DNA of 64,000 bases, taken from contig NOWV01000014.1 of NCBI GenBank assembly GCA_003344405.1, forward strand, positions 372,001 through 436,000, in the 5' to 3' direction. Both the position numbers and the translations under genes were made by a program. Shown in pieces: positions 14,143-40,350 of this stretch. The stretch's first letter is position 1. Each line of letters opens with the position of its first letter. The notes beneath the pieces were generated by a model. That model was not told the DNA's origin, did not search any database, and was given only the letters and a program-made list of their open reading frames with translations. This DNA is from Trichoplax sp. H2 (lineage: Eukaryota).

Positions 14143-16848
14143 CAACGGTGGACCTCTAGGGATTTGAGTAATGCAGTACAGCACTCTAGGTACTCAATCT
14201 GTACTGTTGTATATTGAGTTGACGCCAATATAAGAAGAAAAAGAGTCTCTGCCTACTACGGTCTAGTCAATCTGTCACATTAGAGCAAGTCTTGTTCGCT
14301 TAACTTCATCTGCCGTCAAGCATTGAACACTTTATTAGCGGAGCTAATTAAAGCATACGAGTTAAGGCATATAGCATTCACTACGACATAACCGTGTTGT
14401 TGTTGAGATACGGTATTGCAAAAGTGCAACACCATGGCCTACTGGATAATCATGATAGCGCAATGTCTTTCCATGTCCATTGTAGCGCTTCCAGTAGGTG
14501 GACACCATACAGTGTACAGTCGGATTTGTTGACCATAATTGTAATTGATTTAGAATAAACGCACAGTAAAGAAGAGAAGAGTAAACTGGCGTGTCTTGGA
14601 CAGTCTACAGTATATAGAAAACTTGTCGCAGTTGCTGCTTGAAAAAAATCCAATACAATACAAATTACTATCCGCTGGCACCCCCCGCATGCGTAAAAAT
14701 GCCCAACGTTGATGCATCCAAGCACTTGAGCATGGACTATTTTAAGGTTTCGACCAGCATCGACAGTATAGTAGGGATCGCTGATACTCTATCGTCCAAC
14801 CACTACTTCTATAGGGCCAATATCGATCTCTTGGCGTCTACATGTTACTCTCCATAGGACATATACAGTATGTACATCGATTAACTTCAACAGTGCCTAC
14901 AACGCAAGCAGTGTAGAAAGAAAAGAATTATTAATGCGCTAACCTGATCCGCTTGCTTGAGAATTCACTGAAAGTTAGACATCCATTTGCTTAACCGTGT
15001 AAAGTCGAAAATTATTGTACAACATCATTCCAACAAGATTGAAATTATAGCTATTCATTTTGTGCAGGTGCTTGCCTAAAGTGTGTAATATATATTGCGT
15101 GACTGTTGGGCAAGGCGATCCAATCCAATGAAACGACTCATCCAGAGTAAGTTAACCAGCTAAGTAACGTTAGAAGTCAATAAAGTGCAGTACGCATTTC
15201 TGTTTAGCCATTTCTCCTCAGTAAACGCACAGAATTTCAAATTGAATATGGACCCAATATCCATCATTATCTCAGTTATTTCAATAATATACATCGACCT
15301 TAATTGTACTGAGTAGAATAGAGAAGATAGGCAGATGATTAGAATTTTTGTTACTGTCTAGAGGTCATATACAGTACATACCAGTCGGTTAGCCATTGAC
15401 CGTTACGGAATGACATGTTAACAACTTTTTCAACATCACTTGAGAAAGCAAATGTTGGTTATGAATCTAAATAACGCATGAAAATTTCATACAAGTAAAT
15501 ATTGTATTTTCAAGTAGCAACTTGTACATTGTTATCACATTTTATTTATTATGGTCGCAAGGTTATTTTAGCAATCCTCTTTTAGGATGACACATCCAAA
15601 AGACGTTTTTGTTTTCTATCAACTTTACATGAAAAATGAACTTGTTATCGATTCCAACTCATCATTTATTAATACAATCGATTCATTATTTTTCCATTAC
15701 TCAACTCAAGTGTGTACACTTATAGTTACTAAATGATAGTATGAACGTGTAGGCTGAATACACTAGCTCTAGTATTGATATCTTTTCTCAGCGAAGAACT
15801 TTAATCGTCGTCTATATCTACTGTACTTACACGATGCAGTAACCAAACTTACTAGTCGTCAAAAGCTACAATTTCAACATTTTCAACGTGCTGACTTTAA
15901 AATAGACAAGGAAGCTTGTAATTATCCCTTTACTGTATGAATATTGAATGATGCGTGATGAAGGTTTGCCCGCGTTGACGATTGTGGTTTCAGCGAATTA
16001 ATAGTAATTATGCTCTGTCATTTCAGCTTATTGCACTATATAATTGAGTCAAGTGTATTTATTTTGTTAAGAAAACTCTGCATTTAACCTAATAAGGACG
16101 TCCGTTGCTAATGTTGTGATCACAATTCAAATAGAATGTAATCATTACATTACAAGTGATGCATCAGTGAGTGCTGGTAGAATTCTCGATCAACAGTACA
16201 AATTGTTCTTCTACAATCAACACGCGATAGTCTATGAATCCAATCATATTGATCGATTTGGATGCTCTCCACAGTAATATACAAGTACTTTTTTGCCTTT
16301 GATAGCTAGATGTAGAACTGTTGTGGATATCATACCTCGAACCGGCTACAAATTTCAATTGAAAACAATCACTAATTTTACTTTTAGTGAATTGAATACT
16401 GATAGCCCTATTAGCGCTGAGTCGCATCCACTGGATAGTTAACAATAATAATAATAATTCTAATTAATGAATTAATACTTAAAACGCCATACCATCTACG
16501 TGCAGTTGGTCGAGGTTGAAATTGCATTGTGTAACGTAAAGTATGTGTTTCAAAATGGCAGTAACCTATGCTATGGTTGATTCTGATGGCTAGTCTATTT
16601 TTTATTTTTTTTTTGATTTATCCAGGACCTGGATTGTACAGTACGTGTATCAATCTATCTTACGATTAAAGGTTTACCCAAAATTCAATTATTCTTTGGT
16701 GGAAAGCTAAGTGAAATCGCTCTGTCGACGTTGATCTGCGCGTATTCAATTGATTGGATTGAAGTCGCCTCCTTGTTCAAAAAGTATTTCAACCATTGAC
16801 TGTTTTCATCCAACACCTTGAGTGTGTGTGTGTGTCCATTTTCAAGTG

Positions 16849-19800
16849 ATGGCCATGTTATGCTGCGCCGGTGGTAGAAATACTAGTAATGATCCTGAAT
16901 ATGACATGAAACGTCGCAATAGTAAACTGATTGATAAAGAATTATCCAAAGAGAAAAAATCTCGTGGGCGTCAAATTAAAATTTTGTTATTAGGTGCTGG
17001 CGAAAGTGGTAAGTCGACGTTTTTAAAACAAATGCGAATCATCCATGGTGAAGAATATAGTCAAAAGGATCTTATGGAATTCAAGAACCTCATTTATGGC
17101 AATGTGGTGAAAAATATGCGTGTTCTAATTACTGCAAGGGATTCACTGGGAATCAAATGGGCTAATGCAGATTATGAGGATTACGCCCAAGAATTGTTAG
17201 CAATTGATACCAAATCGACAGTATTCGATTATGCCGCATTTATGTCTTACGCTGGCAAAGTTGTCGATTTATGGCAAGATCGTGCAATACAGCAAACCTA
17301 CGACAAAAGGAATCTTTACCAGCTGGTAATGTATCCAATAAATCATTTAACAGCTTTATCGAAGCTGATATTAATTCATTATGAACTGGCATATCTCCAA
17401 TTCTGTCCACTGTTGCACAATGTTGATGATAGCCATTGTTTTCCACCGTACAGTACAGTCTACAAGTCGACTGTTCCGAATGTCAGACGATTTAGGGGGC
17501 AAAATGTTACTCTTGCCTTTCATGTCGTTCCTTGGCCTAAAATGGGCATTGTACTCGACCAGTGCATGAATGATATTTGTTTGACAAGAATCATTCTTGC
17601 CTAGGTTGCTTCTACTTCTTCTTCTTTTTCCCCCTCCCTCCTTTCTTTCTGTAATCCATTCGCTTGTACAGAGACTAATTTGCGCCTTGTTGCCTTACGT
17701 CGTCGTCTCCTCACTTTCAGCTTCATTGACTACTTTAGAAACGCCTTTGTCTACGTCATAACACGACCTGAATCTACAGTCAGTGTACGTACACTCAGTA
17801 CATTGTATTGTACAATACAATGTACTGTAATGTATGTACTGAGTTGAAAGGGGGGAAAAAAGACCTCCTCCAAACTCAATTTGCGACTACCGACCGACTG
17901 CAGTACAGACTTGAAAGTGAATTCATGCATGAGTCATACTGTACCAATATCCTGTAGTGGATGTTTCAGTACTGTAGCCAAAGAGAAAGGATGTGCAGCA
18001 CAAGACCTTGACAGTCGTAGTTGCAGTCGTCAAATGGAGTAAAAACGCAATCCCAAGCCGCTACTGTAAAACCCGATCAAAGGATGAATTGATTTTCCAA
18101 CCCGAAAGGAGTGCAATCGCCATACAAACACTGTCATTACCACAGAAAATCGGAACGATAAATGGCGCCCTCCAGTCCAGGCTTCGGGTTGATTCTTAAC
18201 CACACTCGACTAGTTGTATTGTCTTGCATTAACCACACTCGACTAATTGTACAGTATTGCATGACCCACACCGACATGGCGACATAGTGATGTTGCTGTT
18301 GGTCCACCTGCTCTCCACTTTTGGCTTGCGATGACAAGCAGACTACCAAAGAAAAGCCTCTCTCTCTCTTTTCTTGAGTAGTTGCTGCTAGAAGCTTGTC
18401 TGTGGTGCTAGAGTAGGCTTTCTACTGTACAGTAGATAGGCAAGTTTTCCACAGCTTTTATGGAGCGTTTTTGCATCGACTGTCAAAGTGTCCAGCAGTA
18501 GTTCACTCGACTGTAATGGAGTCTATTCTTGACTGTAGGTAAATTGTACCAATGCATGCATGACTGAGTCACAGGATGCCATCAACTATTCACAACAATA
18601 TCAAAATGAAATGATAATTAAGAATAAGAAATGAAAGTTTGTAGTCAATGCATCAATTCACGTAGCTTGCACGCAATCATTTTGTAACGTATTGTGCCCA
18701 ACCAACTGGACAGTACAATCCAATTCTACACATAAACTCCAATGGGGACGCGTAGTGAAGAAGAAAATGCCATTTCTCTTATGCTAGACTACAACGTCAG
18801 CGACGTAGGACAGGATGCTTGTTTTGCAAGGGTAGAATGATCGTTAAAACAGTTCATGAGCTTTCTCCACTGATGCCATCGTCTACCATTGGATTCGAAG
18901 AAATTGAAATGAAATACTCTACCTTGTATCCGACGTGCCATAGGCATTTGTTACGCTATAGAACTCCTCTTCCAACAATGGTACAGTTCAACTCATACAG
19001 GTTAAAAAAAAACATCTCCATTCTTCAACCTTGATCCTGTAGTAACCGGTCACCACTGTATGATGAAGAGGCAGAACTATAGCAAAGGAAATCCTTTGGT
19101 GCATCGGTTAAAAGTCATTTTATCGCAATCTTCTTTTCATCAAAGGGTACATCAAGCTATAATGAATGAATTCGAAAAAAACCATTTCAGTAATATGGTT
19201 GCAACAAAAACTGTCCAATTCTACCTTATAACATAGCCTAGGATACTCTCCAGTGCTCCATCCAATCCTATTGTTGATTTAGGACCTTGAGTGGGTTTAC
19301 ACTTCCAATGATAGATACGTATACAGTAGAGCAGTGGACAGGGTTAGACTTAGTGTAGAACAGACATGCAATACACTATCTACCGAATCCATAACTATAA
19401 ATCATTACTGCTAAAATTAGACTACAAGTGCAACTGTAATAATTGGCACCAACTTATCATCCTTACAATCTTCTACTTTAATCGATCCATCTCTTATAAT
19501 ATACGTACTTATGTAATCGTATCCATCTTTTCCTAGTTAAATACCCAGTAAGTGATTATCCAACAGGAGGGCATCAAAAAATAATTATAATGTCATCGAC
19601 TATTCTTGCAGTAATGGAAATCATACTACTGTAAACACTCGCTAATCTATACCGACAATAATAGAAGTATTCTCTTATGGATTGTGCATTAATGTAGTAT
19701 AGGTACTGTATCCATGTAAATTTTTCATTTATAACTCGATCCGTCTTCAGTACAGTGTGCATAAGCCCAATTTTTAGATACAAACATAGGCATAGATTAA

Positions 19801-21520
19801 TGTTTATTCTATTGCAATGCTATCCTAGAATGCTGTTATATGGCTGACCTTTCTTGACTGGAGTCGGTCAATGAGCTACACACACCAGGTCACTCCGATT
19901 CATTCTGTAATAATTACACCGTCAAATCAGATCATTTATCAAATAAGATACTTTTATAGTACAAGTCGCCACACGTGTGCAAACAAACTGCCCGAACAAC
20001 TAATAACTCAATAGCCAACTGATTAAAAAACTAGCTATATATTTGCAACGGATTCCATACTGATAACCTTAATCGCTTGACTCAATACGATCTAGACGGG
20101 TAGTAACATTGACTACACATACTACGACTATAGTCAAGGCACTAACACGGTTGTATTCATATAGAACATACATATATATATATATAATTACAACAAATGC
20201 ATAAAATGAATATTCAGTATTTTCTAATAAAGTGCTAACATACTACTTCATCAATTGGATATATTTTTTAAGCTCTCACTCTTTGTAGGATATAGTCACA
20301 TTAGAGTAAAGTAACTGCATTTTGAAAAAATTTCTTTCTTTTAAAATAGAGCGATTCAACATATTATTTCATGGATCGAATGAAAAGTCTGATGGATAAG
20401 GTAACTCAAAATTTTACTTACGTAGCTATAGCATATCATTACATTGCGTATTGACTTACAGATCTTGGTGTAAATTAATTATTAACTACTCGTTTATGAC
20501 GACATTGTAATCATTGACTTAGTAATGATTTCTACTAGTACTGATCTGCTTATATTGTAGTTCAACATGGATGTACTCTTGCCAAGTAGTAACATACGTA
20601 TATATCGTTGCTATGTGGTACACATTCTAGTCATGTAGATATTACACTTAACAGTCTAGTAGCGTTATATTGATTCATTCCTGTATCCCTTCTTACAATT
20701 ATCGCTGTCTCTTGCATTCACTTTACAAGTAGTACTATGACAAATACTAATATGGATTGGATCTCTGCTACCATCTGCAGACATGATTAAGAGTTTTATT
20801 AATGTCAACGTTTACAATACCGCTGTTTGCTATCATAAAACATAAATAAACTATAAATTTGGCTTATACTATAAAAGTCTTAAAGTTATGTTCAAATCTA
20901 AGACGCATTGTAGACTGTTGAAAGTTCTTCCAATAATTTTTTCCATATAGGCTTATGTACCAACGAAACAAGACGTTTTAAGATCACGTAAAGCTACGAC
21001 TAATATCGTTGAACTAACTTTGAATATCAATCGGGTTCCGTTCACTTTTGTCGACGTTGGTGGTCAAAGATCGCAAAGGCGCAAATGGCTACAGTGCTTT
21101 GAAGGTGTAACATCAGTTTTGTTTTTGGTTTCATCGTGTGCATACGATCAGGTCCTACTAGAAGATAATAGAACGAATCGAATTGTTGAATCCTGCCAGA
21201 TATTTGATACAATAATCAATAATAAGTTTTTCGCAAAAGTAGCCATCATCTTATTCTTCAATAAGACTGACATCTTGATAGAAAAAGTTTCACTTGTCAG
21301 CATAAAAGATTACTTCCCGGAGTTTAGCCGTGATCCTAAGAAGATTGAAGACGTTAAGCATTTCTTGATCACTATGTTTGAAAAAGTGAGCAATGATCAA
21401 AAGCGTGGACTTTATCATCACTTCACTACTGCTACTGACACTGAAAACATTAAATTCGTCTTCAATGCTGTCAGAGAAATGATCTTGGAAGAAAATATGA
21501 GTATATTGATGCTACAGTGA
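16849..21520 (+). CDS. GNA12/13: Heterotrimeric G protein alpha subunit, G12/13 class (paralogue 1), 3 coding exons, ~365 aa
   Basis: Exons 16849-17325, 20350-20400 (51 nt, SDSTYYFMDRMKSLMDK), 20951-21520. Motifs GAGESGKSTFLKQMRIIHG, DVGGQRSQRRKWLQCF, NKTD, HFTTATDTENI; C-terminus ILMLQ (G12/13-type xxMLQ); N-terminal CC, no Gly2. Confidence 0.95.
18196..18275. repeat. 33-bp tandem repeat (~2.4 copies) in intron 1 of G-alpha paralogue 1
   Basis: ttaaccacactcgactagttgtattgtcttgca / ttaaccacactcgactaattgtacagtattgca / tgacccacaccgac. Confidence 0.85.
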
Positions 21521-23849: not shown

Positions 23850-26702
23850 TAATCAATAGTTTTCATATAACCTAATAAGCAAATAGATTTGTATATTCTG
23901 GAATCTTTTATTTTAAATAAAAGATTTCAATATGATATTATGCTGTATAGCTTGAACAGCTTCTTAACGTATTAAGAGGATACATCATAAAAAGCTAACT
24001 TATTACTTCTTCAGATATTACGCTACCAAATCAGTATTCCACTAAGATCTACTCATACACATATACTATTATCCAAGCGTAGACATCCTAGATGTATGAA
24101 ATTATTTTTTCGAAATATGCGATAACAACTATTTGAGACAATAATATTTCGAGTTCGGTTATTAATTTATTTTTTTATGCATGTTTTATTTCGCAGCCAT
24201 GATGTCCTTTAGCAGAGCATAAACTTATAAAATTGTAAAGGTTAACTTTAGACTTCAATTAATCAACGCTAAACTTTTAGATTTATATCGATATATTACT
24301 AGATGATATAGCATTGAGAAAACAACACCTAAATATTAATTATCAATGATAAATAGAAGATTTCTGTCTGGTAGCGCCTTGTGGTTATTAATAACATATT
24401 AATAACGCTATGAGTGCCGTTAACTTTGATAGTAATTCGATATATATTCTTTGTTAACAATAAACTTATGCATCAGCATGCATATCAGATCATCGCTATA
24501 GGACATACAAGAAAAGAAGAATACTACAAATAGGTTGATCCTATTGATTTCAGTTGCCAGACGTATAGAAACATTATCCAGTTGGATAATTTCCCACACT
24601 ATTGTCATAACATTACCAAGTCAGCATCAGTTGTAGGGTACGTCCAATGGGGAAAGATACAACTTACTAGATAAAATCTATTTATAAAATAATTTTAAAA
24701 TTACCTTGGTATTGTGTTTTCAAAACGTATCGGACGATGACATTTGTTACACGGATATATCCAATTGATGAAAATTAGCATTATTAACAAGCTGTCTGAA
24801 TTACTGCTATATACAAAAGTATAATAACTCGTACCCTATAAGCTTTATATAGGTATTAATTTTCTTATATTAGAGCTTTAACTATTACTATAATTTTATC
24901 ATTGTCAGTATGTTTAGTGTTACACACGCGGAATATGCTTAAGTCAATGCCTTATCTTCGTTAATAGTTGGTTCATATCACTGGGAATGATAATTTGAAT
25001 AAAAATTTAAAAGTCCTTATCCAAAGAAAAAGGTTTTGCAAATTGTAATAGGATTATTGATGTACAAATAGCTAATATTAGATAAAATTTTTGTAGGCTA
25101 TTAGTATATCAAATTGAATTTCAACAAGGGATTGGTTATTAATTTTATTCTTACCCTTTCGTTACTTCAGGGCCACTTTTGATAGCCAAGCGTATCAATA
25201 CTTAAGGTAGGATTTTAAGATACTCATGNNNNNNNNNNNNNNNNNNNNTAATCAATAGTTTTCATATAACCTAATAAGCAAATAGATTTGTATATTCTGG
25301 AATCTTTTATTTTAAATAAAAGATTTTAATATGATATTACGCTGTATAGCTTGAACAGCTTCTTAACGTATTAAGAGGATACATCATAAAAAGCTAACTT
25401 ATTACTTCTTCGGATACTACGCTACCAAATCAATATTCCACTAAGATCTACTCATACACATATACAGTACTATTATCCAAGCGTAGACATCCTAGATATA
25501 TGCAATTATTTTTTCGAAATATGCGATAACAACTATTTGAGACAACAATATTTCGAGTTCGGTTATTAATTTTATTTTTTTATGCATGTTTTATTTCGTA
25601 GCCATGATGTCCTTTAGCAGAGCATAAACTTATAAAATTATAAAGGTTAACTTTAGACCTTCAATTAATTTAATCAACGCTAAACTTTTAGATTTATATC
25701 GATATATTACTAGATGATATAGCATTGGGAAAACAACACCCAAATATTAATTATCAATGATAAATAGAAGATTTCTGTCTGGTAGCGCCTTGTGGTTATT
25801 AATAACATATTAATAACGCTATGAGTGCCGTTAACTTTGATAGTAATTCGATATATATTCTTTGTTAAAGATAAACTTATGCATCAGCATGCATATCAGA
25901 TCATCGCTATAGGACATACAAGAAAAGAAGAATACTACAAATAGGTTGATCCTATTGATTTCAGTTGCCAGACGTATAGAAACAATTACAACACATCTTG
26001 ATGGAATATATCTAAGAATTAAAATTATACTGAGCTTTTATTGGCATTATCCAGTTGGATAATTTCCCACACTATTGTCATAATATTACCAAGTCAGCAT
26101 CAGTTGTAGGGTATGTCCAATGGGAAAAGATACAACTTACTAGGTAAAATCTATTTATAAAATAATTTTAAAATTACCTTGGTATTGTGTTTTCAAAACG
26201 TATCGGACGATGACATTTGTTACACGGATATATCCAATTGATGAAAAGTAGCATTATTAACAAGCTGTCTGAATTACTGCTGTATACAAAAGTATAATAA
26301 CTCGTACCCTATAAGCTTTATCTAGGCATAAATTTTCTTATATTAGAGCATTAACTATTACTATAATTTTATTATTGTCAGTATGTTTAGTGTTACACAC
26401 GCGGAACATGCTTAAGTCAATGCCTTATCTTCATTAATGGTTGGTTCATATCACTGGGAATGATTATTTGAATAAAAATTTAAAAGTCCTTATCCAAAGA
26501 AAAAGATTTTACAAATTGGAATAGGATTATTGATGTACAAATAGCTAATATTAGATAAAATTTTTTGTAGGCTATTAGTATATCAAATCGAATTTCAACA
26601 AGGGATTGGTTATTAATTTTATTCTTACCCTTTCGTTACTTCAGGGCCACTTTTGATAGCCAAGCGTGTCAATACTTAAGGTAGGATTTTAAGATACTCA
26701 TG
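23850..26702. repeat. Near-identical direct duplication around a 20-N gap (23850-25228 vs 25249-26702); probable uncollapsed haplotypes
   Basis: Sequence after the gap (25229-25248) restarts at taatcaatagtt and re-reads to gatactcatg, with scattered SNPs, small indels and a 62-bp indel at 25984-26045. Confidence 0.92.
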
Positions 26703-26803
26703 TTGCCTGCATTTCTGTTATATATTAACATAATATTAAGCATATACAAACTTATTTATAGAATATATCGAATTATTACCTTATTTTAATCAAGATTGAA
26801 GAG

Positions 26804-29800
26804 ATGGATACTGTTTTATGCTTTAAAGCAAATAGCGAACGTCGAGAACAAATTCGACACAGTAAAATTATTGATCAAGAAATCCTACAAGAAAGAACAG
26901 AGTACCACAAAACGATTAAGATATTACTATTAGGAGCTAGCGAATGCGGAAAATCAACATTTTTAAAACAAATGAGAATTTTACACGGCCAAGATTTTGA
27001 CGTCCAAGATTTATTGGAATTTCGTTCTATTATATATGGTAACATAATTCGAATTATGAAAGTTTTAGTCACAGCGAGACGAAGTTTTGAAATTCAGTGG
27101 AAAGATTCTTCTCATCAAAACTATGCCGATCAAATTTTAAACTTTAATACTAAAGTAAATGAAATTGAGCCGCATGAATTTGTCGCAGTGGTTGATATGA
27201 TTCGGGAGTTATGGTCAGACGAGGCAATTCAAGAAACTTATCGACGAAGAAATGAATACATATTGGTAATAAAACTGAAATTAGCTTGCTAAGGCCTAGT
27301 TCAAATATAAAATTGTCGCTCATACTTTATGATAGATCTTTAATTTCAAGCTAGAGGATAGTTTAATGATTTTTGCATTTATTGATATTCTACCCAAGTA
27401 GCTAATTTTTACTTTTAGCTATTGCTTATGATAAGCAGATTTACTTTGGGTTTACATATATATTCCTATCATTTAATAATAATGATCAGATAATCTAGAT
27501 TGCAGATGAAACAGCCGTTGGTAACTGTCTAATAACGAACAGATTTTTTGTTGCTAAAAATTAGTTGTTATTGATATGAGGCATTTTTCTACCGTATTTT
27601 GTTTCAAGGAGATTAGATTGATTTATACTGTAGTATATGCATATGGTTCACATTATCTGAAGTATTATTCGCCGCCAATATAATTGCCAGATCGAGTGCT
27701 TTAAACTATCATTAATATCTAAGTAGTGTACCTTATATATTTTTTGAAACGTTGCTTGGTAACGTAGTCATTAAGAAGACATAAAAATTTGACTTTATGG
27801 TATTAATCCTGAGCTAAATCAGCAATGATACATAAAAAGTATCGGATGGAGTTTCGTAGATATGAATTGTATCTTCTATCCGGAAATAATTATCAAAATG
27901 ACGTAAAACCATTAATATTACGTAGATATGAATTGTATCTTCTATCCGGAAATAATTATCAAAATGACGTAAAACCATTAATATTACACATTCATTTATA
28001 TTATGTTATTTTCTTATGGATATATTAGCATTCTACATATGTTATAAATGCAACTAATTCCTTTTATATACGTATNNNNNNNNNNNNNNNNNNNNAGACG
28101 AGGCAATTCAAGAAACTTATCGACGAAGAAATGAATACATATTGGTAATAAAACTGAAATTAGCTTGTTAAGGCCTAGTTCAAATATAAAATTATCGCTA
28201 ATACTTTATGATAGATCTTTAATTTCAAGCTACAGGATAGTCTAATGATTTTTGCATTTATTGATATTCTACCCAAGTAACTAATTTTACTTTTAGCTAT
28301 TGCTTATGATAAGCAGATTCACTTCGGGTTTACATATATATTCCTATCATTTAATAATAATGATCACATAATCTAGATTGCAGATGAAATAGCCGTAGGG
28401 AACTGTCTAATAACGAACAGATTTTTTGTTGCTAAAAATTAGTTGTTATTGATATGAGGCATTTTTCTACCGTATTTTGTTTCAAGGAGATTAGATTGAT
28501 TTATACTGTAGTATATGCATATGATTCACATTATCTAGAGCATTATTCGCCGCCAATATAATTGCCAGATCGAGTGCTTTAAACTATCATTAATATCTAA
28601 GTAGTGTACCTTATATATTTTTTGAAACGTTGCTTGGTAACGTAGTCATTAAGAAGACATAAAAAATTTGACTTTATGGTATTAATCCTGAGTTAAATCC
28701 GCAATGATACACAAAAAGTATCGAATGGAGTTTCGTAGATATGAATTGTATCTTCTATCCGGAAATAATTATCATAATGACGTAAAACCATCAATATTAC
28801 ACATTCATTTATATTATGTTATTTTCTTATGGATATATTAGCATTCTACATATGTTATAAATGCAACTAATTCCTTTTATATACGTATTATTTTAAGTGA
28901 AGGCTTTGCCTGATCGAGGCTATCGTTCATCACTAAAATTTGTTAGGTTATGAACATGAGATGTAGGAAAATGATACCGTGATAGCGGTTAATTCTAAGG
29001 CTTTCGCTTATCTGTAGCAAGAAAATAATATTTTTATCAAAGTATTAAAAAGTTAATGCAGGTTCATTCAGGGGTTCTGCCATTTGACTAATCTGTGATG
29101 CTCTGATTTTGTACCAAATCAATCGTATTATCAAGGATACTAAAATATCACACGTTATAGATTCTGTATTACTCTCTTGTCTATGTGCTCATTCAATGGC
29201 TTTCGATCCCCTTTAGCATGAAAAAACAATTTCATCAAAGTATTATAAAATTATAGCGTGGGTTAATTCAGGCGTTCCAGTATTTAATTCCTTTAATTGT
29301 CCTCTGATTTTATACTAGATCAGTCAGATTATCGAGGAAAGTAAAACATCTCTCATTATAGATGCACCATTACTTCCTTAGGTGACAAGCGGCCAGCGGT
29401 AGAAAATTTGTTTACTCTACTTTCGCCAATAGTTCTCAAAGCTACCACCATTTCGAAGCTACTGATCGTAGGACGTACTTTTATTTAGTATTATTCATCA
29501 ACGACAGCTGTTGTTTAAATGGAATATAACCTCACGGTCTTTGCCTCAATTATTCATAAAATTTAACGTGATTATGCACTGTTATATGTATTGTCGTCGT
29601 GATTCGACAACATATTAAGTCAAAATCGCACAAATAAAGTAGCTAAAATTAGAATTTAATGATAATCATTGAAGTAAAGTAAGGTATGACTAGTTTGTGA
29701 AACTCTTCCTTTATTAAGTAAAATGGATTAGATGGGGTAAAATAATAAAACTAGAGGATTAGTTCGTATTTCATCTTTCAGTTAAATAGTTTATAAGTTT

Positions 29801-32543
29801 TTCTAGCAATAATATAACTATAACGCTATCTTACGTACTTCGAATCACAGTCCTAATAATTTAAAAGCTATTTACATCGACTAGTATGTCGTACTTAATG
29901 TTAATCTTTAATCCTTTTTAGCGGCATTTCTTTGTCATAGTTTTCAATAGCTGAAATTACTAATGTATGATTTATGGAAACAGGGGTTCGTAATTTATCA
30001 CTTTCAGAAGGTTTATGCAGCTAGTTAGGATGTATTCTGACAATTCTACTGAATAAACGATTGTTAAAATATATAAATTATCTATATAACTTATCCTATG
30101 AAGTTAGCATAGTGAAAGAATTTATACTAAAAAAATTATATATATAGCAATATCTATGGAACCATTTATGTTTAAGAGGAATGAAAATACTTCTATCTCT
30201 ATTTCTATTTGATTACCAAATGACTGACACCGATGTCTTGCATTCGCTTTTATTCTGCAGGCAGATTCAACGAAATATTTCATGGATAGGCTAGAAGTTA
30301 TTGGCAAGGAGGTGATTATAAAATTATAACAGTAGCTTACCATTTATTTCATTTTATTCTCCTGTTAATTTTTAATCTTAACGAAATGGAGAACGAAGGT
30401 AAGCTGACTTAGATATACAGTGGATTAATTAATAATTGCCACATTAGGAAACAATTTCGACACATTCTTGTTAACATTAGATATCATTTAAAAGGATTCT
30501 AATTTCTTTGGTTATTTCATGTTTCGTTGACATTTACTTTAATTGTGCGCTAGTATTTCTTGATTGATGGTGTTGGTACTCGATTGGATATAAATCCAAA
30601 TAATAATCTATCAAGATCAGATATTAAGTAAACGCGCACTTAGGAAATATGTAATACATGAAATACAATCCGGAGAAATCTTAGTGTAAAATACTTTCAA
30701 TAGTCACTATTAGTAAGGATAAACGTTCATAGTATTCATACTATCGAAGATTCAAATTATTACTCTGTTAACATTAAAAAGCCTCAATTTAATGGTATAA
30801 TATTGTCCATCTATGATCATGGTTACAAAATGTTTAAAAAATTAAGACTTCAGAATAACAACAAATTCATTTAGGCGTATATTATCGTGTTAGATGCGGG
30901 TATAGGTAACAAGTGTAAAATGATTACACAGATAAAGAATATAGTAATTGCCCTATGTTGCAAAGCGTCTATGTTTTAATTTAATATAGACTATTAACCA
31001 AATAGCAAAAAAATGAAAGCCCAATATCGCTTGTAAACTATTACTCAAAGTTTAAAGTTAATAATGAAACGATTCATTTGCTTTACTGATACGGTACCGG
31101 TGGTTGATATTCGTAATTATCAAGCAGCCACTAGCGAATATGCCCTGCGATGTAATTCTGAATGTATACTGCAATCTGCTGTTCGATTTCTAAGTTAAAA
31201 ATGAAATCCTAAAACTCGTGTTCGGTTTAGATTAGAGCATTTTATCTTTACATTATTTGCTGATCTATTCACTGCAATGCTTAATTCATAACGGATAAAA
31301 ATTTTTCATTTGTATAACCTAGTTGTATGCAATTTAAGAGGCGTACCAAGGATAAGAGGAAACTTTAATCTAGAACGAGAATATCCATATCGCTCTAAAG
31401 TAATGAATCCTGTGATATTAAGAAGCATTTGAAGCTTTTATCACAAATTTAATCTTTTACTGTATATCAAACATATTTTAAATTTCTTGCACAAGTTTCT
31501 TTACAATGCCTGGATAAACTCAAATGTAGTATACAACTTTACTCTATATTAAAGCCTAATTAGAGATATATCCCTGATAGCAAAAGAATGAAAACGATAA
31601 GGTATTTTTACTTTTAATATGCCGTAATTAGTTGAAAATTATAGAAAGAATTGTGCTATTTTTTAAGTAACTGGCTATAAAGTTATGAATTCAATGTCGG
31701 TCCAAAGATACTTTTAGCTGATCTATTTAGAAGGAAACATATAAGATAACTATTAAGAAGGTTTCATGAATTGTACTTATCAAGCTACTACTCACTGACA
31801 TAGTCGACATCTTAAAAATATCTGAAACCATAATGCAACTATGCTAAAATCAATTTTTGATACCCAATGTTTCAAGAAATTACCCGTAGATTAGATATAA
31901 TCCTCGTAAGCCTCGTAGCGAAGCTTGCAATGAATCAATTTAATTTGATCAATTTTAACTGTAGGATTACGTTCCAATTCGACAAGATGCTTTAAGGATG
32001 AGAAAGGCAACAAAAACAATTGTTGAATTTACCACCACAATTAATAAAATCCCATTTGTCTTTATTGACGTTGGTGGGCAAAGATCTCAAAGGCGCAAGT
32101 GGTTACAATGTTTCGAATCTATTACTGCCATTTTATTCTTAGCAGCAGCTAGCGATTATAATCAAGTTTCACTAGAAGATAGAAAAACTAATCGCCTACT
32201 GGAATCATTAGAAATATTCGGTGCCATAGTCAACCATGAGCTCTTAGCTAAAGCTTCTAAAATCTTATTTTTAAATAAGATTGATTTACTGGAGGAAAGG
32301 TTAACCATAAGCAATATCAAAAATTTCTTTTCTGCATTCAATGGGGATGAAAATGATTTAACAACCGTTAAAGAATTTATATTGCAGCTTTTTTCCAACA
32401 AGATGGAAGCCAATAATGACAATGATAAATCATTATATCATCATTATACAATCGCTACGGATACTGAAAATATTAAAGTGGTATTCCGTGATGTAAAACA
32501 GACTATTTTACAAGAACGATTGGGAAGCTTGTTACTACACTAA
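26804..32543 (+). CDS. Divergent G protein alpha subunit, G12/13 class (paralogue 2), 3 coding exons, ~363 aa
   Basis: Exons 26804-27265, 30261-30311 (51 nt, ADSTKYFMDRLEVIGKE), 31965-32543, with the same intron positions and phases as paralogue 1. Motifs GASECGKSTFLKQMRILHG, DVGGQRSQRRKWLQCF, NKID, HYTIATDTENI; C-terminus SLLLH. Confidence 0.93.
27217..28888. repeat. Near-identical direct duplication around a 20-N gap (27217-28075 vs 28096-28888); probable uncollapsed haplotypes
   Basis: After the gap (28076-28095) the sequence restarts at agacgaggcaattc, repeating the last 49 nt of G-alpha exon 1, its donor site and the proximal intron with SNPs. Confidence 0.92.
27855..27986. repeat. Perfect 66-bp tandem duplication, present in only one of the two gap-flanking copies
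   Basis: cgtagatatgaattg...ccattaatatta at 27855 and 27921; single copy at ~28734-28799. Confidence 0.95.
28999..29373. repeat. Old degenerate ~199-bp tandem duplication in intron 1 of G-alpha paralogue 2
   Basis: Collinear anchors ggctttcg, atcaaagtatta, ttcagg, ctctgatttt, ttatagat and attact recur about 198-199 bp apart. Confidence 0.75.
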
Positions 32544-34782: not shown

Positions 34783-35055
34783 TTAATCGTCGTCTTCTGG
34801 CACAAATATGTCATTCTCTTCTAAAAAGGCCGCGCCTCGTTTGGATAACTGGGCACCCAGGTAGGTAAAAGAAACAGAGATCACTACTGCTTTAATAGTT
34901 CCAAATCTATCAATATGTGGCTTATCATGAAACACGGCTGAAGGTTGGTTCGCTATAGTCCGACTAAAGAAGTTTTTCGATTTATTCCATTTGGATGCAA
35001 ACAGTAGTGATGGACGAGCGGCGGCACGCAAGGAAAAAGTAGCAAAGATCGCCAT
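34783..35055 (-). CDS. SMDT1: Essential MCU regulator EMRE (mitochondrial calcium uniporter subunit), single coding exon, 90 aa
   Basis: ATG at 35055. Basic/hydroxylated presequence (MAIFATFSLRAAARPSLLFASKWNKSKNFFSRT), then KP...FG, one TM helix with GxxxS (YLGAQLS) and the diagnostic AAFLEENDIFVPEDDD acidic tail. Confidence 0.95.
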   Translation of the reverse strand: MAIFATFSLRAAARPSLLFASKWNKSKNFFSRTIANQPSAVFHDKPHIDRFGTIKAVVISVSFTYLGAQLSKRGAAFLEENDIFVPEDDD

Positions 35056-35717
35056 TATGACCAGGAAGACTGAGGCCACGGACAGCGGACGTCCACAGTT
35101 TTTCCTTCTGATTGCGACGGACTGACTGACAAAGGCGATACGGAAGGACTGGACTAGTACGGGTGTAAGCGCTGTCTGTTGTACTGGTCATTTTACTATA
35201 CTGTAAAGCTGGAAATGTACACGGTACCTTAAAGTGTAGTAAATGGCCAGCCGTCTACCCTCTTCATTTTAAAGATGGTTTCCAGTCCCTCTCTCTCTTA
35301 ATACTACGCAACCGAATCATACACCAAGTATTAATTATGACAATATAGGAAAATCAATCCTTTATTTATTAGATGCAATCTCCATGATTATCATACAAAG
35401 TGGCAGTACACTGCCATATTGTTGAGTCTAACCATATACAAATGTCAAGATGAGGCGTTCAATATAGCAGGTCGTGAACATAGCAATATACTATATGAAA
35501 ACCTGCTTTCTTCGATCGTTATGGTCGGGAATAAATGGTTTTATGACTGATTATGCCTGTCTTACATCTCTATGCTTTTTTGATTAATGATAGATCAGTA
35601 TGCCACTACGCTACTACGGTATAAGAGGAAATTCGCCACACTATATCCATCAAAGGGCGTAGACTAGACTTTAGACATCACTGCGATAGGGTATACGCTC
35701 AGTACATTTTAGCCCTG

Positions 35718-35731: not shown

Positions 35732-36138
35732 AAGCGGGCAAACTCTGATTTCTCCAAACATCCTTACTATGCTCTTGCAGTCATGCAAGAGGGCAAATAC
35801 AACCAAAAAGAAATAATAAGTTAACTTACTGATGACGGTATCAACAGAAGCAATTATTGTATTTGTGTAGTCGATCAATAGACTGTAAATCTAAACCACG
35901 GGATAGAACGGATTGCTATGAGATGAGAATAACGTACTCATCAAGTTCAACTGATTGTGAAGTCGACTTAGTTTGCTGCTACTAGATACAGTATTCCACT
36001 CTACTAAGCACTGCTAACAAGTTGATCAGTTTTGATTGATTATAGTAATACTGTACAAATAGCTAAAAAACGAATATCATTCGATGTCCTTACAATTTCA
36101 TTCGATCTTTTGTGGTAACCAGTAGTCAACTTTCCGTC

Positions 36139-38893
36139 ATGCCTGACTTCTTTTTGGTAGCTGGAGCTACACAGTTATCAGTAGCGTTGTTAAACGTTAT
36201 CATACCAGCCGTTGCATGGTTAACAACAGGAATTATATCAGCTACTACAGTTCCTGCTACATATTTTTTGGGTCCAGGTGTGGTTGGCATTACCGTAAGT
36301 ACAGTATACATTTCTTAATCAGTATTCTACAACGGAGATATTTGAAAAAATTTAGTCATAAATTGCTTGATACACATTTACAATAATCATATCTACGAAT
36401 ATAGCCTGATTAATGCATATACCAGCTTTTATAACAAACTTGAATAGTTTGAACAAATCAGGCAATATTAAAACTATTTTATTTTTTTCACTAAAAATAT
36501 TCAATTAAAATATGCTGGTATTTAGACGCAGTAATTAAGTTAAAAGACATAAAATTGAAGATTTACTACACAGTCGGTACGTTATTAACAGTAGTTTCAT
36601 TTCTGTGATCTAGTTTAAGTGCGATAAATGCGGTAATTAATAAGATGTTATTAACCACAGTGGATATTCTATGATCAACATTTACTTCTGTTCAAGTTAT
36701 TGTAAACATTGATCCATTTAATACGTTATCGCGATATTTCTGTTTTCTTTAAAGCTCGCTACTTCGGCCTTTTCATGCTTTATGGCAAGAAATAAAGCAC
36801 TTGATACAGTGGTAAGTTTCTTTTATTGTATGTAACACTATAGAATATAAAAGCATTAAAGAGTCGCAAAGATAATCTTAGACTAGTTAATATATTTAGC
36901 GTCTCAAATGTTTTGTAATATTTCATTAATCTGTCGCTTGTACTATCGTTAAGCAGCACTACTACTATGTAAAATTTATTATGCAAAATTGCTAATTTTG
37001 CATAGTAGTGCATAATTATTATCTTAATAGTTATAATTGAAAGTGGCTACTTATGCTGTAACTATATCAAGTTACAATCACCGTAAAGAAATTTTTATTT
37101 TTTCTATTTGGCTGTGATATCTACGCTTACATTGACATCAATGCAATCTCAAATAGTAATAATAATTTTATTTACTTTTAGGTTGCAGGCATTTATGTTT
37201 TTTCACTACTTGCTACAACATATTCTATTAGCAGTATTTTAATGTTTATTAGTGTTATAGTACGGTTGGCTACTTCAAATCTATTAAATACTGCTGTTGG
37301 AGCTTTGATTTTCACCTTGGTTACCATCGCTATTTTATGTGTATCTATGGGTGTTGCTATATGGGTCATTTACACAGCAAGAAAAATGTTACTCAAATCT
37401 GACTCTGTACAATCAGTTGACAATCCTGATTCCCCGCCGACCGTAGCTGAGCCAACAAACTGTTTAACAGATAGGACATTGGCCATATTAGAAATGTCAG
37501 CCGGTAACTTACTTGTAATAACCCCGGGAGTAGCAATATTCTTCCCATCTATTCAAAGACTGTATTGTGTGTTACCGCTATATGCTGGATCATTGGTAAA
37601 TAAGTAATTGTGGATTACCACTTAAAAATTGCATTGGATTAGCTTATAAACAAGTTATGAATGTATCACTCTGATTCCTTTTTTTCAATCATTTTGTTTA
37701 CTAATGACAGCTGATTGCTTCTGGAATGATGGGATATGATTATACGACTAAGAAAAGATATGCTCTTGTAAGTAGCAAATACATTGACGATTGCTACACA
37801 TTGGTATCATGATCAACCTTACAGTAAAATATTATGCTTATTCATCTTTATATCAAATGCATTTTGTAGATGTTGTGGTCGTTTGTTATGACTCGATTAA
37901 GCCTGCTATTAACTACTGTAGCTATCGCTGGAACTGGATTCTATTTGGGCATCACTGTTGGAAGTGGTTCTACAGCTCCTACTAATTTAGCTCTTATTTC
38001 ATTAATTCTGTTGGTTAGCATTTATGGCTTTATAATATCTATTGTATCGTTGGTTGTTACACGTAAGAGACTTGGGATAGTTTGCAGTTGTAACTTTAAT
38101 GTCAAAGATATGGAGTTTATATTTGGTGTGACAATGGTGGTATTAGGAGTAGTATATGCTATTGTAGCAGCGGTTGGATTAGTTTTGTTTGCAGCTCGCT
38201 ATTTTACAATTGTTGGATTTTTCGTTGCATGCGTGGTAAGTGTTAATCATGGTAGTAAGTAAAATATACATATTGAAATTTACCCTACTAAATTAATTTC
38301 ATTTCATAACGGGCTATCGTTCAAATATTTAGTAATTAATTTTGTGTTACGATCATCTACGTATATAGTCTAATTGCAATTTGCTTATTATGTCATGAAA
38401 TAGTTGCTGTTAAATGGAGAGTTAGGTATGGACTCTAGGGACGTTAAACATTTTGTAAGTACTGCCTTTCGATATTTCTATTACGAATTGGATCGTTAAT
38501 GTCGCATAATTACTAGAATTATTTAGGCAGTCTGCTGTAAATTGGTGTTCATTTTGTATTCGTAAATTGCGTAATGTAAAATTATCATGATATAAACGAT
38601 ACTTTTAATTTTTGTCATTGTACATTTAGGAAATTTCATTTGTTGTGAGATCAGTCTTGTCTGCCAGCTTTTCCGTTGAATGTGCAGTATTGACAATTGT
38701 GGAGTTTATTGCCTATTTGCGTTTAAATCCATCTTCCGGCCTTCTGGTACGCGGAGTTGCTATGATGGCTACAATTCTTGTATTTAATATAGCCACATTT
38801 GGTATAGCAGTAGCGGCTACCGTGAAAACAGGCAGAAAACATCAATTGTGCGGTATTTCTTCCCAGACTGGCCCATCTGAAGCTGAATCATAA
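36139..38893 (+). CDS. Polytopic membrane protein of three tandem CD20/MS4A-like tetraspan units, 7 exons, ~454 aa
   Basis: Exons 36139-36294, 36755-36811 (57 nt), 37182-37595, 37711-37767 (57 nt), 37870-38235, 38404-38454 (51 nt), 38630-38893; all phase-0 GT-AG, 1365 nt open. About 12 hydrophobic segments. Unit 2 reads LAILEMSAG...LPLYAGSL|LIASGMMGYDYTTKKRYAL|MLWSFVMTRLSLL, matching the MS4A pattern. Gene structure is well supported; the family call is by eye. Confidence 0.8.
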
Positions 38894-40350
38894 AATTAAT
38901 CAATTTGAATATTATGGATTTCATTTTTTATGATGGGTTCTTTAGATTTGAAGTACAGTTGATTTTAACAACTCTTTCATGGTTTGGAAATGGTTGCAAA
39001 TCCTACTCGAATGATTTATCTATTATATAGTATGAATTAAAAGACACATTTGGTAATACGTCCAGTATTGGCGAAGTTGATTAAAAAAAATTTGGCTTTT
39101 ATTTACTCTACCCCTTAAATACCCAGTTTGTTATGACTTAAAACATTCAATAATTCATTTTGGATAGCTTACCTAAATTGATAATTTTATTCAGCTTTGT
39201 ATGTTTCATATTACTTTGGTAAATCAGCTTGCCTCAACAATACCTTGCATGTAGTGTAGTAGTTCATTTCATTAGTAATTTATTGCAATGTTGTTTACTC
39301 TGCATGAGAATGTGGTTAATGATAAAAGTTCAATGAATTATTATCCTAGCATCTGCATGAGTAAAGTCTTCAGCTATTTATCTATTAATGGCAATGTAAA
39401 TTCCAATTTTTCTGCATGTCATTCCTGTTGACTGCTCAATCAGTAATGACCTAATCCCTTCTACCTTATGCACTAATAAAGAGCATCATGATACGCAATC
39501 GAATGACGTCAACTATGACTTTTCAACGAACGATTGAAAATGTAGATCAGCAGTCCAGATATCCGTTCGAAACTCATTGTTCACAGCCTTCTGTAATGGA
39601 GAATTGTCCACATCTTATGATGACCTATTAAAAGCTGCCTTAAAATAGGAATTGCATATACAATTGGTATTTTATATATCTGAATCATGGACTGCTAGAA
39701 ATTGCTAATGTAGCCCATGTTTTGGACGTATGGTCGTTTTAATGGGGTCCGTCTGCACGTCCGTTGGTCAAACACAGAATCCCTGCACTTCTTCTTACAG
39801 TACAGTACTGTAGAGTAGAGTGTAAAGTGTACAGTACTGTACTGTACTGCTACAGTACTGCGAACTGTATACCGTGCTCTAGTGACCAGTATTACATCAA
39901 ATTTCATCATTTCAATGTTCACTCATGTAATCATGACTGTACTGGTACTGTACTGTATATAAGTCAAGGTAAATGACCAATTTCAATTACAACCTGTCAA
40001 GTCTCAAGTTGCAGCATCAGTCAACTGTTTCACTACACCTGATCAAGGCAATATCAACCGCAGTACGGCAGTAGCACTCATTACTTTCATATACAGTACA
40101 CTAGTATTTGCAATTGTTGATCATCTAGTGCACTCCTTACCTCGGTCGACCAGCACCAATAGACTTTGGTAGTAAAGGTACTCATTGAATTACTGACTCT
40201 TGCTGCTGCAGCAAAGTCAGTATCAAGATCGATTGAAACGCCCAACGTTGACTGCTGACCAGTGGATTATTTTCATTGGATGAAGTGACCTGACCCACCA
40301 AAGCGTTGACCACACTCATCCGTCTCTCTCGACAGCCAGTAGGACACAGT

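What the first reader, a model, noticed from the sequence alone, without database searches (positions are those of the whole stretch)
36139..38893. Covalently triplicated CD20/MS4A-like tetraspan: a ~12-TM single-chain pseudo-trimer
Seen: seven phase-0 exons splice into one ~454-aa ORF whose architecture repeats three times, each unit containing a 57/57/51-nt micro-exon (LATSAFSCFMARNKALDTV; LIASGMMGYDYTTKKRYAL; LLLNGELGMDSRDVKHF). The ORF track misses all three; the first was predicted from the repeat symmetry and then found at 36755-36811 with good splice sites. Each unit has a TM1 of type GATQLSVA / AILEMSAG / GVTMVVLG and three further hydrophobic helices. Knowledge (recalled): CD20 reads YPLWGGIM|YIISGSLLAATEKNSRKCL|VKGKMIMNSLSL with a 57-nt phase-0 exon at this position, and MS4A proteins are normally single 4-TM units that oligomerise and act in Ca2+ signalling and non-GPCR chemoreception. 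Inference: this is an MS4A-superfamily concatemer with fixed three-unit stoichiometry and highly diverged units, possibly a single-chain receptor or channel in an early-branching animal. I know of no described example.
Basis: partly seen in the sequence, partly recalled or inferred. Interest (0 to 1): 0.88.

Follow-up and report, generated by a model that had tools for sequence, protein, structure and literature searches.

The report
Placozoan 12-helix protein, three tetraspan units
This is a real, transcribed Trichoplax gene for a 12-helix membrane protein built from three similar four-helix units, already in databases as a hypothetical protein, and its suspected kinship with the CD20/MS4A family is plausible but not proven.

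Summary
Seven phase-0 GT..AG exons (36139-38893, +) splice into a 454-aa ORF. It is identical to the annotated hypothetical protein TrispH2_002748 of Trichoplax sp. H2. One assembled RNA contig carries all seven exons, and the six junctions appear in 2-3 of 4 laid runs.

The protein has 12 predicted helices in a 4+4+4 layout. A 57/57/51-nt micro-exon encodes each TM2-TM3 loop.

Internal triplication rests mainly on this exon and topology periodicity. Only units 2 and 3 are significantly alike (z about 5, 0 of 500 shuffles). Unit 1 is not, and profile-profile comparison gave nothing.

CD20/MS4A membership is not shown:
- Unit 2 alone gives a sub-threshold Pfam CD20 hit (E 0.0085, 16.6 bits against a cut-off of 27.9).
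- Protein-atlas neighbours are CD20 and MLC1 clusters at lead level only.
- The whole protein, single exons, PDB searches and a 1.84-billion-protein phmmer scan gave no non-placozoan relative.
- My AlphaFold models were too poor to test the fold.

Multi-unit MS4A genes (2 or 6 units) and the 4+4 protein MLC1 are already described.

Verdict: a solid gene of moderate interest, whose family assignment remains open.

The parts
35918..36138 (+). 5' UTR (minimum extent)
   Evidence: RNA contig X5 record 9 begins at 35918. X7 record 16 extends about 149 nt further upstream of 35900. An in-frame stop lies upstream of the ATG.
36139..36294 (+). Exon 1, 52 aa: start codon, TM1 and most of TM2 of unit 1
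   Evidence: Joint 36294>36755 is seen in X5 and X7.
36755..36811 (+). Exon 2, 57-nt phase-0 micro-exon: end of TM2 and the cytoplasmic TM2-TM3 loop of unit 1
   Evidence: joints on both sides; helix limits
37182..37595 (+). Exon 3, 138 aa: TM3-TM4 of unit 1, the conserved cytoplasmic linker, and TM1-TM2 of unit 2
   Evidence: Conserved at 77% in placozoan fragments P0003 and P0006, with conservation ending at the splice donor.
37711..37767 (+). Exon 4, 57-nt phase-0 micro-exon: TM2-TM3 loop of unit 2
   Evidence: joints in X5, X6, X7
37870..38235 (+). Exon 5, 122 aa: TM3-TM4 of unit 2, a short linker containing CSC, and TM1-TM2 of unit 3
   Evidence: Conserved at 73-75% in P0004 and P0007.
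38404..38454 (+). Exon 6, 51-nt phase-0 micro-exon: TM2-TM3 loop of unit 3. It is missing from the T. adhaerens gene model P0001.
   Evidence: Joints 38234>38403 and 38454>38630 are seen in X5, X6 and X7.
38630..38893 (+). Exon 7, 87 aa plus stop: TM3-TM4 of unit 3 and the C-terminal tail
   Evidence: 61% identical in P0005.
38894..39200 (+). 3' UTR (minimum extent; the contigs run beyond the stretch laid)
   Evidence: X6 record 15 and X5 record 11 cover up to 39200 and continue past it.

Best explanation
This is an expressed, placozoan-restricted gene (TrispH2_002748; T. adhaerens orthologue TRIADDRAFT_53847). It encodes a 454-aa polytopic membrane protein of 12 helices arranged as three tandem four-helix units.

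Each unit has the same gene anatomy. TM1-TM2 come first, then a phase-0 micro-exon for the short basic TM2-TM3 loop, then TM3-TM4. TM3-TM4 of one unit is fused in a single exon to TM1-TM2 of the next. By the positive-inside rule, the N-terminus, the three micro-exon loops, both inter-unit linkers and the C-terminus are cytoplasmic. The outside loops are 4-11 residues long and uncharged.

The most likely origin (inferred) is fusion of tandem copies of a three-exon tetraspan gene. Intronic unequal crossing-over then duplicated a [micro-exon + fused exon] module, long enough ago that no DNA repeat remains.

The unit is probably (about 50%) a very distant relative of the CD20/MS4A-like tetraspan bundle, to which MLC1 may also be related.

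The most likely working mode (inferred, about 30-35%) is a membrane-embedded scaffold or regulatory subunit in which three diverged tetraspan bundles are held in fixed 1:1:1 stoichiometry. Contact with partners would run through the conserved cytoplasmic linkers (an acidic, Ser/Pro-rich U1-U2 linker and a Cys-Ser-Cys U2-U3 linker) rather than through an ectodomain. A cation-conducting role through conserved intramembrane polar residues (Q12, E175, E392) is the next guess.

Shown: the gene model, the transcript, the helix count, the exon periodicity, the U2-U3 similarity and the restriction to placozoan sequences. Inferred: the origin, the family kinship, the packing and the function.

The confidence of 0.5 is for the statement as a whole. 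By part it is: gene model and transcript about 0.97, threefold repeat about 0.8, CD20-like kinship about 0.5, scaffold function about 0.3.
For: **Gene and transcript**
- Seven phase-0 GT..AG exons give a 454-aa ORF identical to P0002.
- All seven exons lie in one RNA contig. The joints are seen in 2-3 of 4 runs and in none of the DNA-like run's contigs.

**Architecture**
- 12 helices in a 4+4+4 layout.
- K+R count is 20 on the N-terminal side against 5 on the other. D+E count is 16 against 3.
- Outside loops carry no charge.

**Repeat**
- U2 vs U3 Smith-Waterman score 65: z 5.7 with 0 of 500 plain shuffles, and z 5.1 with 0 of 500 layout-preserving shuffles.
- Same-type half-units average z 1.70 (6 pairs) against 0.23 for different-type pairs (9 pairs).
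- The local alignments of U1-U2 and U2-U3, computed without intron information, place the micro-exon boundaries in the same columns or within two residues.

**CD20 lead**
- Unit 2 alone hits PF04103 at E 0.0085. Unit residues 21-93 align to profile positions 14-79 of 156, which is in register from TM1 to TM3.
- 0 of 10 TM-rich 145-aa control segments from neighbouring MFS genes hit CD20 at E<=10.
- Atlas features: the nearest named clusters are CD20 (0.86) and MLC1 (0.85) for the whole protein, and an MS4A4D-like cluster (0.83) and MLC1 (0.83) for unit 2.
- Atlas structure for unit 2: TM 0.80 by query over 136 residues with a PF04103-94% cluster, against a next best of 0.65.

**Conservation**
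- Five placozoan fragments (P0003-P0007, 61-84% identical by BLASTP/MAFFT; one search's phmmer figures are 62-75% for P0003-5) match exons 3, 5 and 7 only.
Against: **Weak or absent repeat signal for unit 1**
- U1-U2 and U1-U3 are not significant: z 1.4, with 41 and 54 of 500 shuffles reaching the score, and 63 and 65 of 500 with layout-preserving shuffles.
- Exon 3 vs exon 5 gives z 0.2.
- hhalign of the exon 3, 5 and 7 profiles gives Prob 0.2-0.4%, and one of the three best alignments is out of register.
- No DNA-level repeat matches the units.

**CD20 signal below any accepted threshold**
- The score is 16.6 bits against a gathering score of 27.9. An unrelated family, DUF996, scores slightly better (E 0.0067).
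- The whole protein and the four large exons (1, 3, 5, 7) scanned singly give no CD20 hit at E<=10.
- Spurious sub-threshold hits of similar or better E-value occur for the control TM segments, for example DUF3169 at 1.6e-5 on an MFS piece.
- phmmer against 1.84 billion representatives found only 3 hits, all placozoan fragments.
- PDB sequence and profile searches never found CD20.
- Atlas scores are under 0.9 ('lead only'). For the whole protein only 5 of the 10 best family hits agree, which the tool reads as 'probably wrong'. Whole-protein structural TM scores are 0.28/0.45.

**No usable model of my own**
- pLDDT was 35.1 and 52.5.
- Foldseek against the PDB gave 0 matches at E<=0.001 and no CD20 among the rows listed.

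**Function and published view**
- No functional data of any kind exist for this protein.
- PMC2826416 (passages) concluded that invertebrate MS4A-like similarities are short and non-specific.
Confidence: 0.5

Rival explanations
1. This is a lineage-specific orphan. It is a true internal triplication of a four-helix unit that has no common ancestry with CD20/MS4A, and the CD20-like signals are convergent features of small-residue-rich tetraspan bundles.
For: There is no sequence relative outside placozoan fragments (3 hits; 4 hits, all placozoan). The CD20 hit is below threshold and tied with DUF996. Spurious sub-threshold hits are common for TM segments. PMC2826416 (passages) reports that such short similarities occur in many unrelated membrane proteins.
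Against: It was also the first named cluster by features and by structure in both atlas calls (17, 38). The structural TM of 0.80 stands clear of the other four-helix hits, which reach at most 0.65.
Confidence: 0.33
2. This is a 12-helix protein that is not a real triplication. The 4+4+4 look and the three micro-exons would be coincidental, or only units 2 and 3 are duplicates and the N-terminal four helices have a different origin.
For: U1 shows no significant similarity to U2 or U3. hhalign finds no repeat. No DNA repeat is present.
Against: There are three phase-0 micro-exons of 57, 57 and 51 nt at the same topological place, the end of TM2 plus the cytoplasmic loop. Large exons fuse TM3-4 with the next TM1-2 twice. 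The U1-U2 alignment puts both exon borders in identical columns. Same-type half-units score higher than different-type ones.
Confidence: 0.12
3. This is a member of a known 12-TM transporter fold (MFS-like or similar) that was missed by sequence searches.
For: Helix number only. The gene lies upstream of a cluster of MFS_2-type transporter genes. Atlas structural rows include MFS, TrkH and CstA at TM 0.30-0.33.
Against: There is no Pfam transporter hit at E<=10 for the whole protein or the exons. The structural scores are far below 0.5. MFS is a 6+6 fold with a long central loop, not 4+4+4. The neighbouring MFS genes are readily recognised by Pfam while this gene is not.
Confidence: 0.03

Closest known systems
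CD20/MS4A family (Pfam PF04103, CD20-like)
   Same: The unit has four helices with both ends cytoplasmic, a short basic TM2-TM3 loop, and a polar residue in TM1 (Q12 in unit 1, E175 in unit 2). Unit 2 gives a sub-threshold, in-register Pfam match. The nearest named clusters by atlas features and structure belong to this family. The family forms oligomers, and covalent 2- and 6-unit forms are predicted in chicken, opossum and platypus (PMC2826416, passages).
   Different: The score is below the family cut-off, and there is no hit for the whole protein. It has three units rather than 1, 2 or 6, and they are highly diverged from each other. The TM3-TM4 outside loops are only 4-5 residues long, so it lacks an ectodomain like the one I recall for CD20. 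It has no long cytoplasmic tails. It comes from a placozoan, whereas the 2010 survey found MS4A only in jawed vertebrates.
MLC1 (Pfam PF27925 Membrane_MLC1)
   Same: It is a single chain built from repeated four-helix units: MLC1 is 4+4, with contacts between its repeats, and is reported as a homotrimer in detergent (PMC9144339, section 4). MLC1 clusters rank second and third among atlas feature neighbours (0.85 and 0.83). One atlas cluster carries both PF27925 and PF04103 labels.
   Different: No PF27925 hit was listed at E<=10, and I could not confirm that this model is in the Pfam copy searched. It has three repeats, not two. MLC1 clusters are chordate. MLC1 itself has no established molecular activity.
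TMEM196 and MARVEL-type tetraspans
   Same: They have four-helix topology. TMEM196 (0.84) and MARVEL (0.76) clusters appear lower in the atlas lists.
   Different: There is no Pfam hit, the scores are lower than for CD20 and MLC1, and these are single-unit proteins.

Membership tests
CD20/MS4A (PF04103) | Pfam profile score at or above the gathering cut-off (27.9 bits) | tested here: not met
   Unit 2 alone scores 16.6 bits, E 0.0085. The whole protein gives no CD20 row at E<=10, and neither do exons 1, 3, 5 and 7 scanned singly. Units 1 and 3 could not be scanned as intact units.
CD20/MS4A (PF04103) | Four transmembrane helices per unit with N- and C-termini cytoplasmic | tested here: met
   Prediction only. 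There are 12 helices in three groups of four. K+R count is 20 inside against 5 outside.
CD20/MS4A (PF04103) | Detectable sequence similarity to bona fide MS4A proteins, including solved CD20 | tested here: not met
   phmmer against 1.84 billion representatives found only 3 placozoan fragments. PDB phmmer and profile searches at E<=10 found no CD20.
CD20/MS4A (PF04103) | Fold superposable on CD20 structures | tested here: inconclusive
   My AF2 models were too poor: pLDDT 35.1 and 52.5. Foldseek against the PDB gave 0 matches at E<=0.001. The atlas's own model of unit 2 aligns to a predicted PF04103-family model at TM 0.80 by query, which is below that tool's naming bar.
Paper searches returned nothing useful. 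The placozoan side of the comparison is established.
MLC1 (PF27925) | Pfam profile match | tested here: inconclusive
   No PF27925 row at E<=10. I could not verify that this recent model is in the library copy. Only atlas feature neighbours at 0.83-0.85 point to it.
MLC1 (PF27925) | Eight helices as a 4+4 internal repeat | tested here: not met
   This protein has 12 helices as 4+4+4.

The most novel reading that the evidence does not exclude
The three units are genuine, anciently diverged members of a CD20/MS4A-MLC1 tetraspan superfamily that pre-dates Bilateria. Placozoa would then have hard-wired a hetero-trimeric assembly of such bundles into one chain. This would give a natural single-chain model for how MS4A- or MLC1-type proteins oligomerise, and possibly for how they conduct or sense.
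Probability: 0.3. Interest if true: 0.6.

Novelty: new variant of a known kind. Interest (0 to 1): 0.4.

Why it matters
MS4A proteins and MLC1 are medically important: CD20 is a therapeutic antibody target, MS4A loci are linked to Alzheimer risk, and MLC1 to leukodystrophy. Their molecular activity and working stoichiometry are still debated.

A very old, naturally concatenated three-unit relative would fix subunit order and number in one polypeptide. That would make it a convenient object for structure determination and electrophysiology. It would also push the origin of the family back to early animals, against the 2010 view that it is restricted to jawed vertebrates.

If the kinship fails, the gene is still a clean example of an internal-repeat membrane protein whose history is recorded in its intron pattern. 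That would be of local interest only.

Tried and rejected
**Structure**
- AlphaFold2 of the whole protein with a 5-row alignment gave pLDDT 35.1 and pTM 0.25. Only the helix limits were used.
- AlphaFold2 of unit 2 with 5 rows gave pLDDT 52.5.
- Foldseek against the PDB on that unit 2 model gave 228 rows at E<=10 and none at E<=0.001. The rows were miscellaneous helical proteins and are treated as meaningless.

**Internal repeat**
- Self-BLASTP of the protein gave only the identity hit.
- hhalign between the exon 3, 5 and 7 alignments gave Prob below 1%.
- The DNA repeat search gave no unit-length repeat.

**Homologue and locus searches**
- The search for homologous proteins was run as near, longer, and shorter restricted to the unit 2 region. 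Only the T. adhaerens orthologue and placozoan fragments came back.
- The search for related loci with P0003 in metagenome contigs matched 588 pattern stretches, none confirmed. The micro-exons could therefore not be checked in other placozoan lineages.
- The genome search 'own' showed that no genome is held for this window, so paralogues and genuine PF04103 genes of Trichoplax could not be sought.

**PDB sequence searches**
- The only rows were an antibody chain (E 0.67) and a lactate dehydrogenase (E 1.2). Both were rejected as chance. Searches returned nothing.

**Earlier findings and papers**
- The earlier-findings index returned nothing.
- MS4A + Trichoplax returned 1 irrelevant paper.
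- MLC1 + cryo-EM + CD20 returned 1 irrelevant paper.
- The gene identifiers returned 0.
- CD20-like + placozoa returned 0.
- MS4A + exon + '57 bp' returned 0.
- MS4A + exon boundaries returned 1 irrelevant paper.

**Other**
- The known 12-TM transporter fold idea was rejected (see rival explanations).
- Intron 1 cover in X6 (record 13) and the low-depth intronic contigs in X5 and X7 were not interpreted.
Full report
**1. What is there**

The stretch 36139-38893 (+) contains seven exons: 36139-36294, 36755-36811, 37182-37595, 37711-37767, 37870-38235, 38404-38454 and 38630-38893. Every exon length is a multiple of three, so all introns are phase 0. All six introns start with GT and end with AG. 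Exons have 39% G+C and introns 27%. The spliced ORF is 454 aa. An in-frame stop lies upstream of the ATG with no earlier ATG.

The product is letter-for-letter identical to P0002. The protein collection names P0002 as RDD45687.1, hypothetical protein TrispH2_002748 of Trichoplax sp. H2. The T. adhaerens orthologue P0001 (XP_002109634.1, TRIADDRAFT_53847, 437 aa, 'uncharacterized') differs by three substitutions and by the absence of the 17-aa exon 6. The gene is therefore already in public annotation, without any family or function (no precomputed Pfam domains).

**2. Transcript evidence**

I laid contigs of four public runs on 35900-39200.
- All six predicted junctions appear as GT..AG joints. 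Joint 1 is in X5 and X7. X6 shows loose ends that match the neighbouring exon.
- Joints 2-6 are in X5, X6 and X7.
- X1 covers the introns continuously and shows no joint, as a DNA-like run would.
- X5 record 9 (1438 nt) runs from 35918 through all seven exons. The 52 letters between its exon 5 and exon 7 pieces correspond to exon 6.

The units are thus parts of one transcript. The refutation test 'separate genes' fails. No exon 6-skipped joint was listed, so the shorter T. adhaerens model is probably an annotation miss (inference; contigs can hide rare isoforms).

**3. Architecture**

AlphaFold2 on a 5-row alignment was unconfident (pLDDT 35.1). Its secondary structure still gives 12 long helices:
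- Unit 1: 2-29, 41-64, 70-103, 109-145
- Unit 2: 166-183, 193-213, 223-259, 265-297
- Unit 3: 307-330, 336-355, 364-399, 404-444

Hydropathy peaks agree. Assigning sides by helix midpoints puts 20 Lys/Arg on the N-terminal side and 5 on the other, and 16 against 3 Asp/Glu. By the positive-inside rule (established knowledge), the N-terminus, the TM2-TM3 loops, both inter-unit linkers and the C-terminus are cytoplasmic. The outside loops are 4-11 residues long and uncharged.

Each micro-exon encodes the end of TM2, the short basic TM2-TM3 loop and the first residues of TM3. Exons 3 and 5 each fuse TM3-TM4 of one unit to TM1-TM2 of the next.

**4. Is it a triplication?**

*Sequence evidence is uneven.*
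- Units 2 and 3 align over essentially their whole length, in register, with score 65. That is z 5.7 with 0 of 500 plain shuffles, and z 5.1 with 0 of 500 shuffles that preserve the helix/loop layout.
- Unit 1 against units 2 or 3 is not significant (z 1.1-1.4; 41-65 of 500 shuffles reach the score).
- In a half-unit test, the six same-type pairs average z 1.70 and the nine different-type pairs 0.23. The best pair is TM1-2 of unit 2 against TM1-2 of unit 3 (z 3.5, 5 of 800).
- Self-BLASTP, hhalign of the exon 3, 5 and 7 alignments (Prob 0.2-0.4%) and a DNA repeat search show nothing.

*The stronger argument is anatomical.* Three phase-0 micro-exons of 57, 57 and 51 nt sit at the same topological position. 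The intron-blind local alignments of U1-U2 and U2-U3 place the exon borders in the same columns or within two residues.

I rate a true threefold repeat at about 0.8. A plausible history (inferred) is fusion of tandem three-exon tetraspan genes, followed by intronic unequal crossing-over that duplicated a [micro-exon + fused exon] module. The best half-unit similarity, between the TM1-2 parts carried by exons 3 and 5, fits this.

**5. Relatives**

- phmmer of the whole protein against 1.84 billion representatives found 3 proteins at E<=0.001. All are short ORF fragments matching exons 3, 5 and 7 at 62-75% identity.
- Word-indexed searches (near, longer, and shorter restricted to unit 2 at E<=10) added two more fragments and nothing else.

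In these fragments, similarity stops exactly at the splice donors of exons 3 and 5. The best conserved stretches are the two cytoplasmic linkers. The family is thus visible only in placozoan-like sequences. No single-unit or two-unit relative was found.

**6. Is the unit CD20/MS4A-like?**

*Against:*
- Pfam gives no CD20 row at E<=10 for the whole protein or for exons 1, 3, 5 and 7.
- PDB sequence and profile searches never return CD20.
- My own models could not be used for fold comparison.

*For:*
- Unit 2 scanned alone gives PF04103 at E 0.0085 and 16.6 bits against a cut-off of 27.9. Unit residues 21-93 align to profile positions 14-79 of 156, which is the expected TM1-to-TM3 register. It appears beside DUF996 (E 0.0067) and DUF2919 (E 0.068).
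- As a control, ten 145-aa TM-rich pieces of the neighbouring MFS genes gave 0 CD20 rows at E<=10. They did give spurious sub-threshold rows, such as DUF3169 at 1.6e-5, so an E of 0.01 is within the noise for such queries.
- The ESM Atlas holds this protein with a confident model of its own (pTM 0.81). By features, the nearest named clusters are a CD20 cluster (0.86) and MLC1 clusters (0.85) for the whole protein. For unit 2 they are an MS4A4D-like cluster (0.83), MLC1 (0.83) and CD20 (0.82), with 7 of the ten best family hits agreeing.
- By structure, unit 2 aligns over 136 residues to a PF04103-94% cluster at TM 0.80 by query, against 0.65 for the next best four-helix hit.

All of these lie below the tools' own bars. 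I put distant kinship at about 0.5 and do not file the protein as a member.

The recalled CD20 intron position was not testable here.

**7. Comparison with what is described**

- PMC2826416 (passages read) reports long MS4A genes with two tandem units in chicken, opossum and platypus, and one with six units in opossum. It takes them as support for oligomerisation. It also concluded that invertebrates lack MS4A genes, because similarities were short and non-specific.
- PMC9144339 (section 4 read) describes MLC1 as a 4+4 structural repeat, homotrimeric in detergent, with no conductance detected and a proposed tetraspanin-like organising role.

Covalent multi-unit tetraspan proteins of this broad kind are therefore known. 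A three-unit, strongly diverged form in a placozoan is not described in anything I could search.

**8. How it most likely works**

There is almost no extracellular surface. The most conserved stretches among the fragments compared are the cytoplasmic linkers: an acidic, Ser/Pro-rich segment between units 1 and 2, and a basic Cys-Ser-Cys segment between units 2 and 3. The Cys-Ser-Cys segment is a candidate lipidation site (inference).

I favour a membrane-embedded scaffold or regulatory subunit in which three diverged four-helix bundles pack in fixed order. It would engage partners from the cytoplasmic side or within the bilayer (about 0.3-0.35). A cation-conducting or sensing role is the second guess (about 0.2). 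It would use the intramembrane polar residues Q12, E175 (conserved in both fragments that cover it) and E392 (conserved in P0005). A chemoreceptor role seems least likely, given the minimal ectodomain. None of this was tested.

**9. Surroundings**

The gene stands alone. No paralogue is present in the window. On the minus strand about 950 nt upstream is a DDDD-family ORF. Further upstream lie two G-alpha genes and a mitochondrial carrier. Downstream lie at least four tandem MFS_2-type transporter genes. No sizeable ORF overlaps the gene on the minus strand.

**10. Verdict**

- Observation: confirmed.
- Interpretation: partly supported.
- Novelty: a new variant of a known kind if the CD20/MLC1 link holds, otherwise a lineage-specific internal-repeat membrane protein.
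- Interest: moderate (0.4).

Noticed in passing
window 38404-38454: The T. adhaerens reference model (P0001, 437 aa) lacks the 17-aa micro-exon 6. RNA contigs of three runs include it, and no skipping joint was listed. The shorter model is probably an annotation miss.
   Followed up: partly
window 37385-37490 and 38050-38095 (protein residues about 140-168 and 293-308): The two cytoplasmic inter-unit linkers are among the best conserved stretches in the placozoan fragments. One is an acidic, Ser/Pro-rich segment. The other is a basic segment with a Cys-Ser-Cys motif that could be lipidated.
   Followed up: partly
window 16822-21520 and 26762-32543 (+): There are two tandem G-protein alpha-subunit genes (PF00503 hits on ORF pieces).
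   Followed up: partly
window 40446-61532 (+): A tandem array of at least four MFS_2/SLC45-like transporter paralogues lies here, with very similar long exons.
   Followed up: partly
window 34783-35187 (-): An ORF with a DDDD (PF10161, putative mitochondrial precursor) domain lies about 950 nt upstream of the 12-helix gene and is transcribed divergently.
   Followed up: no
window 10673-11271 (+): These are mitochondrial carrier (PF00153) exons.
   Followed up: no
window 25229-25248, 28076-28095, 63321-63340: Three runs of 20 N are present, presumably assembly gaps. The second lies inside the second G-alpha gene region.
   Followed up: no
window 36265-36757: One contig of RNA run X6 covers intron 1 continuously with seven differences. 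X1 and X7 hold two allelic 120-nt contigs at 36568-36687. This suggests a retained intron or DNA carry-over, and a polymorphic intron.
   Followed up: no
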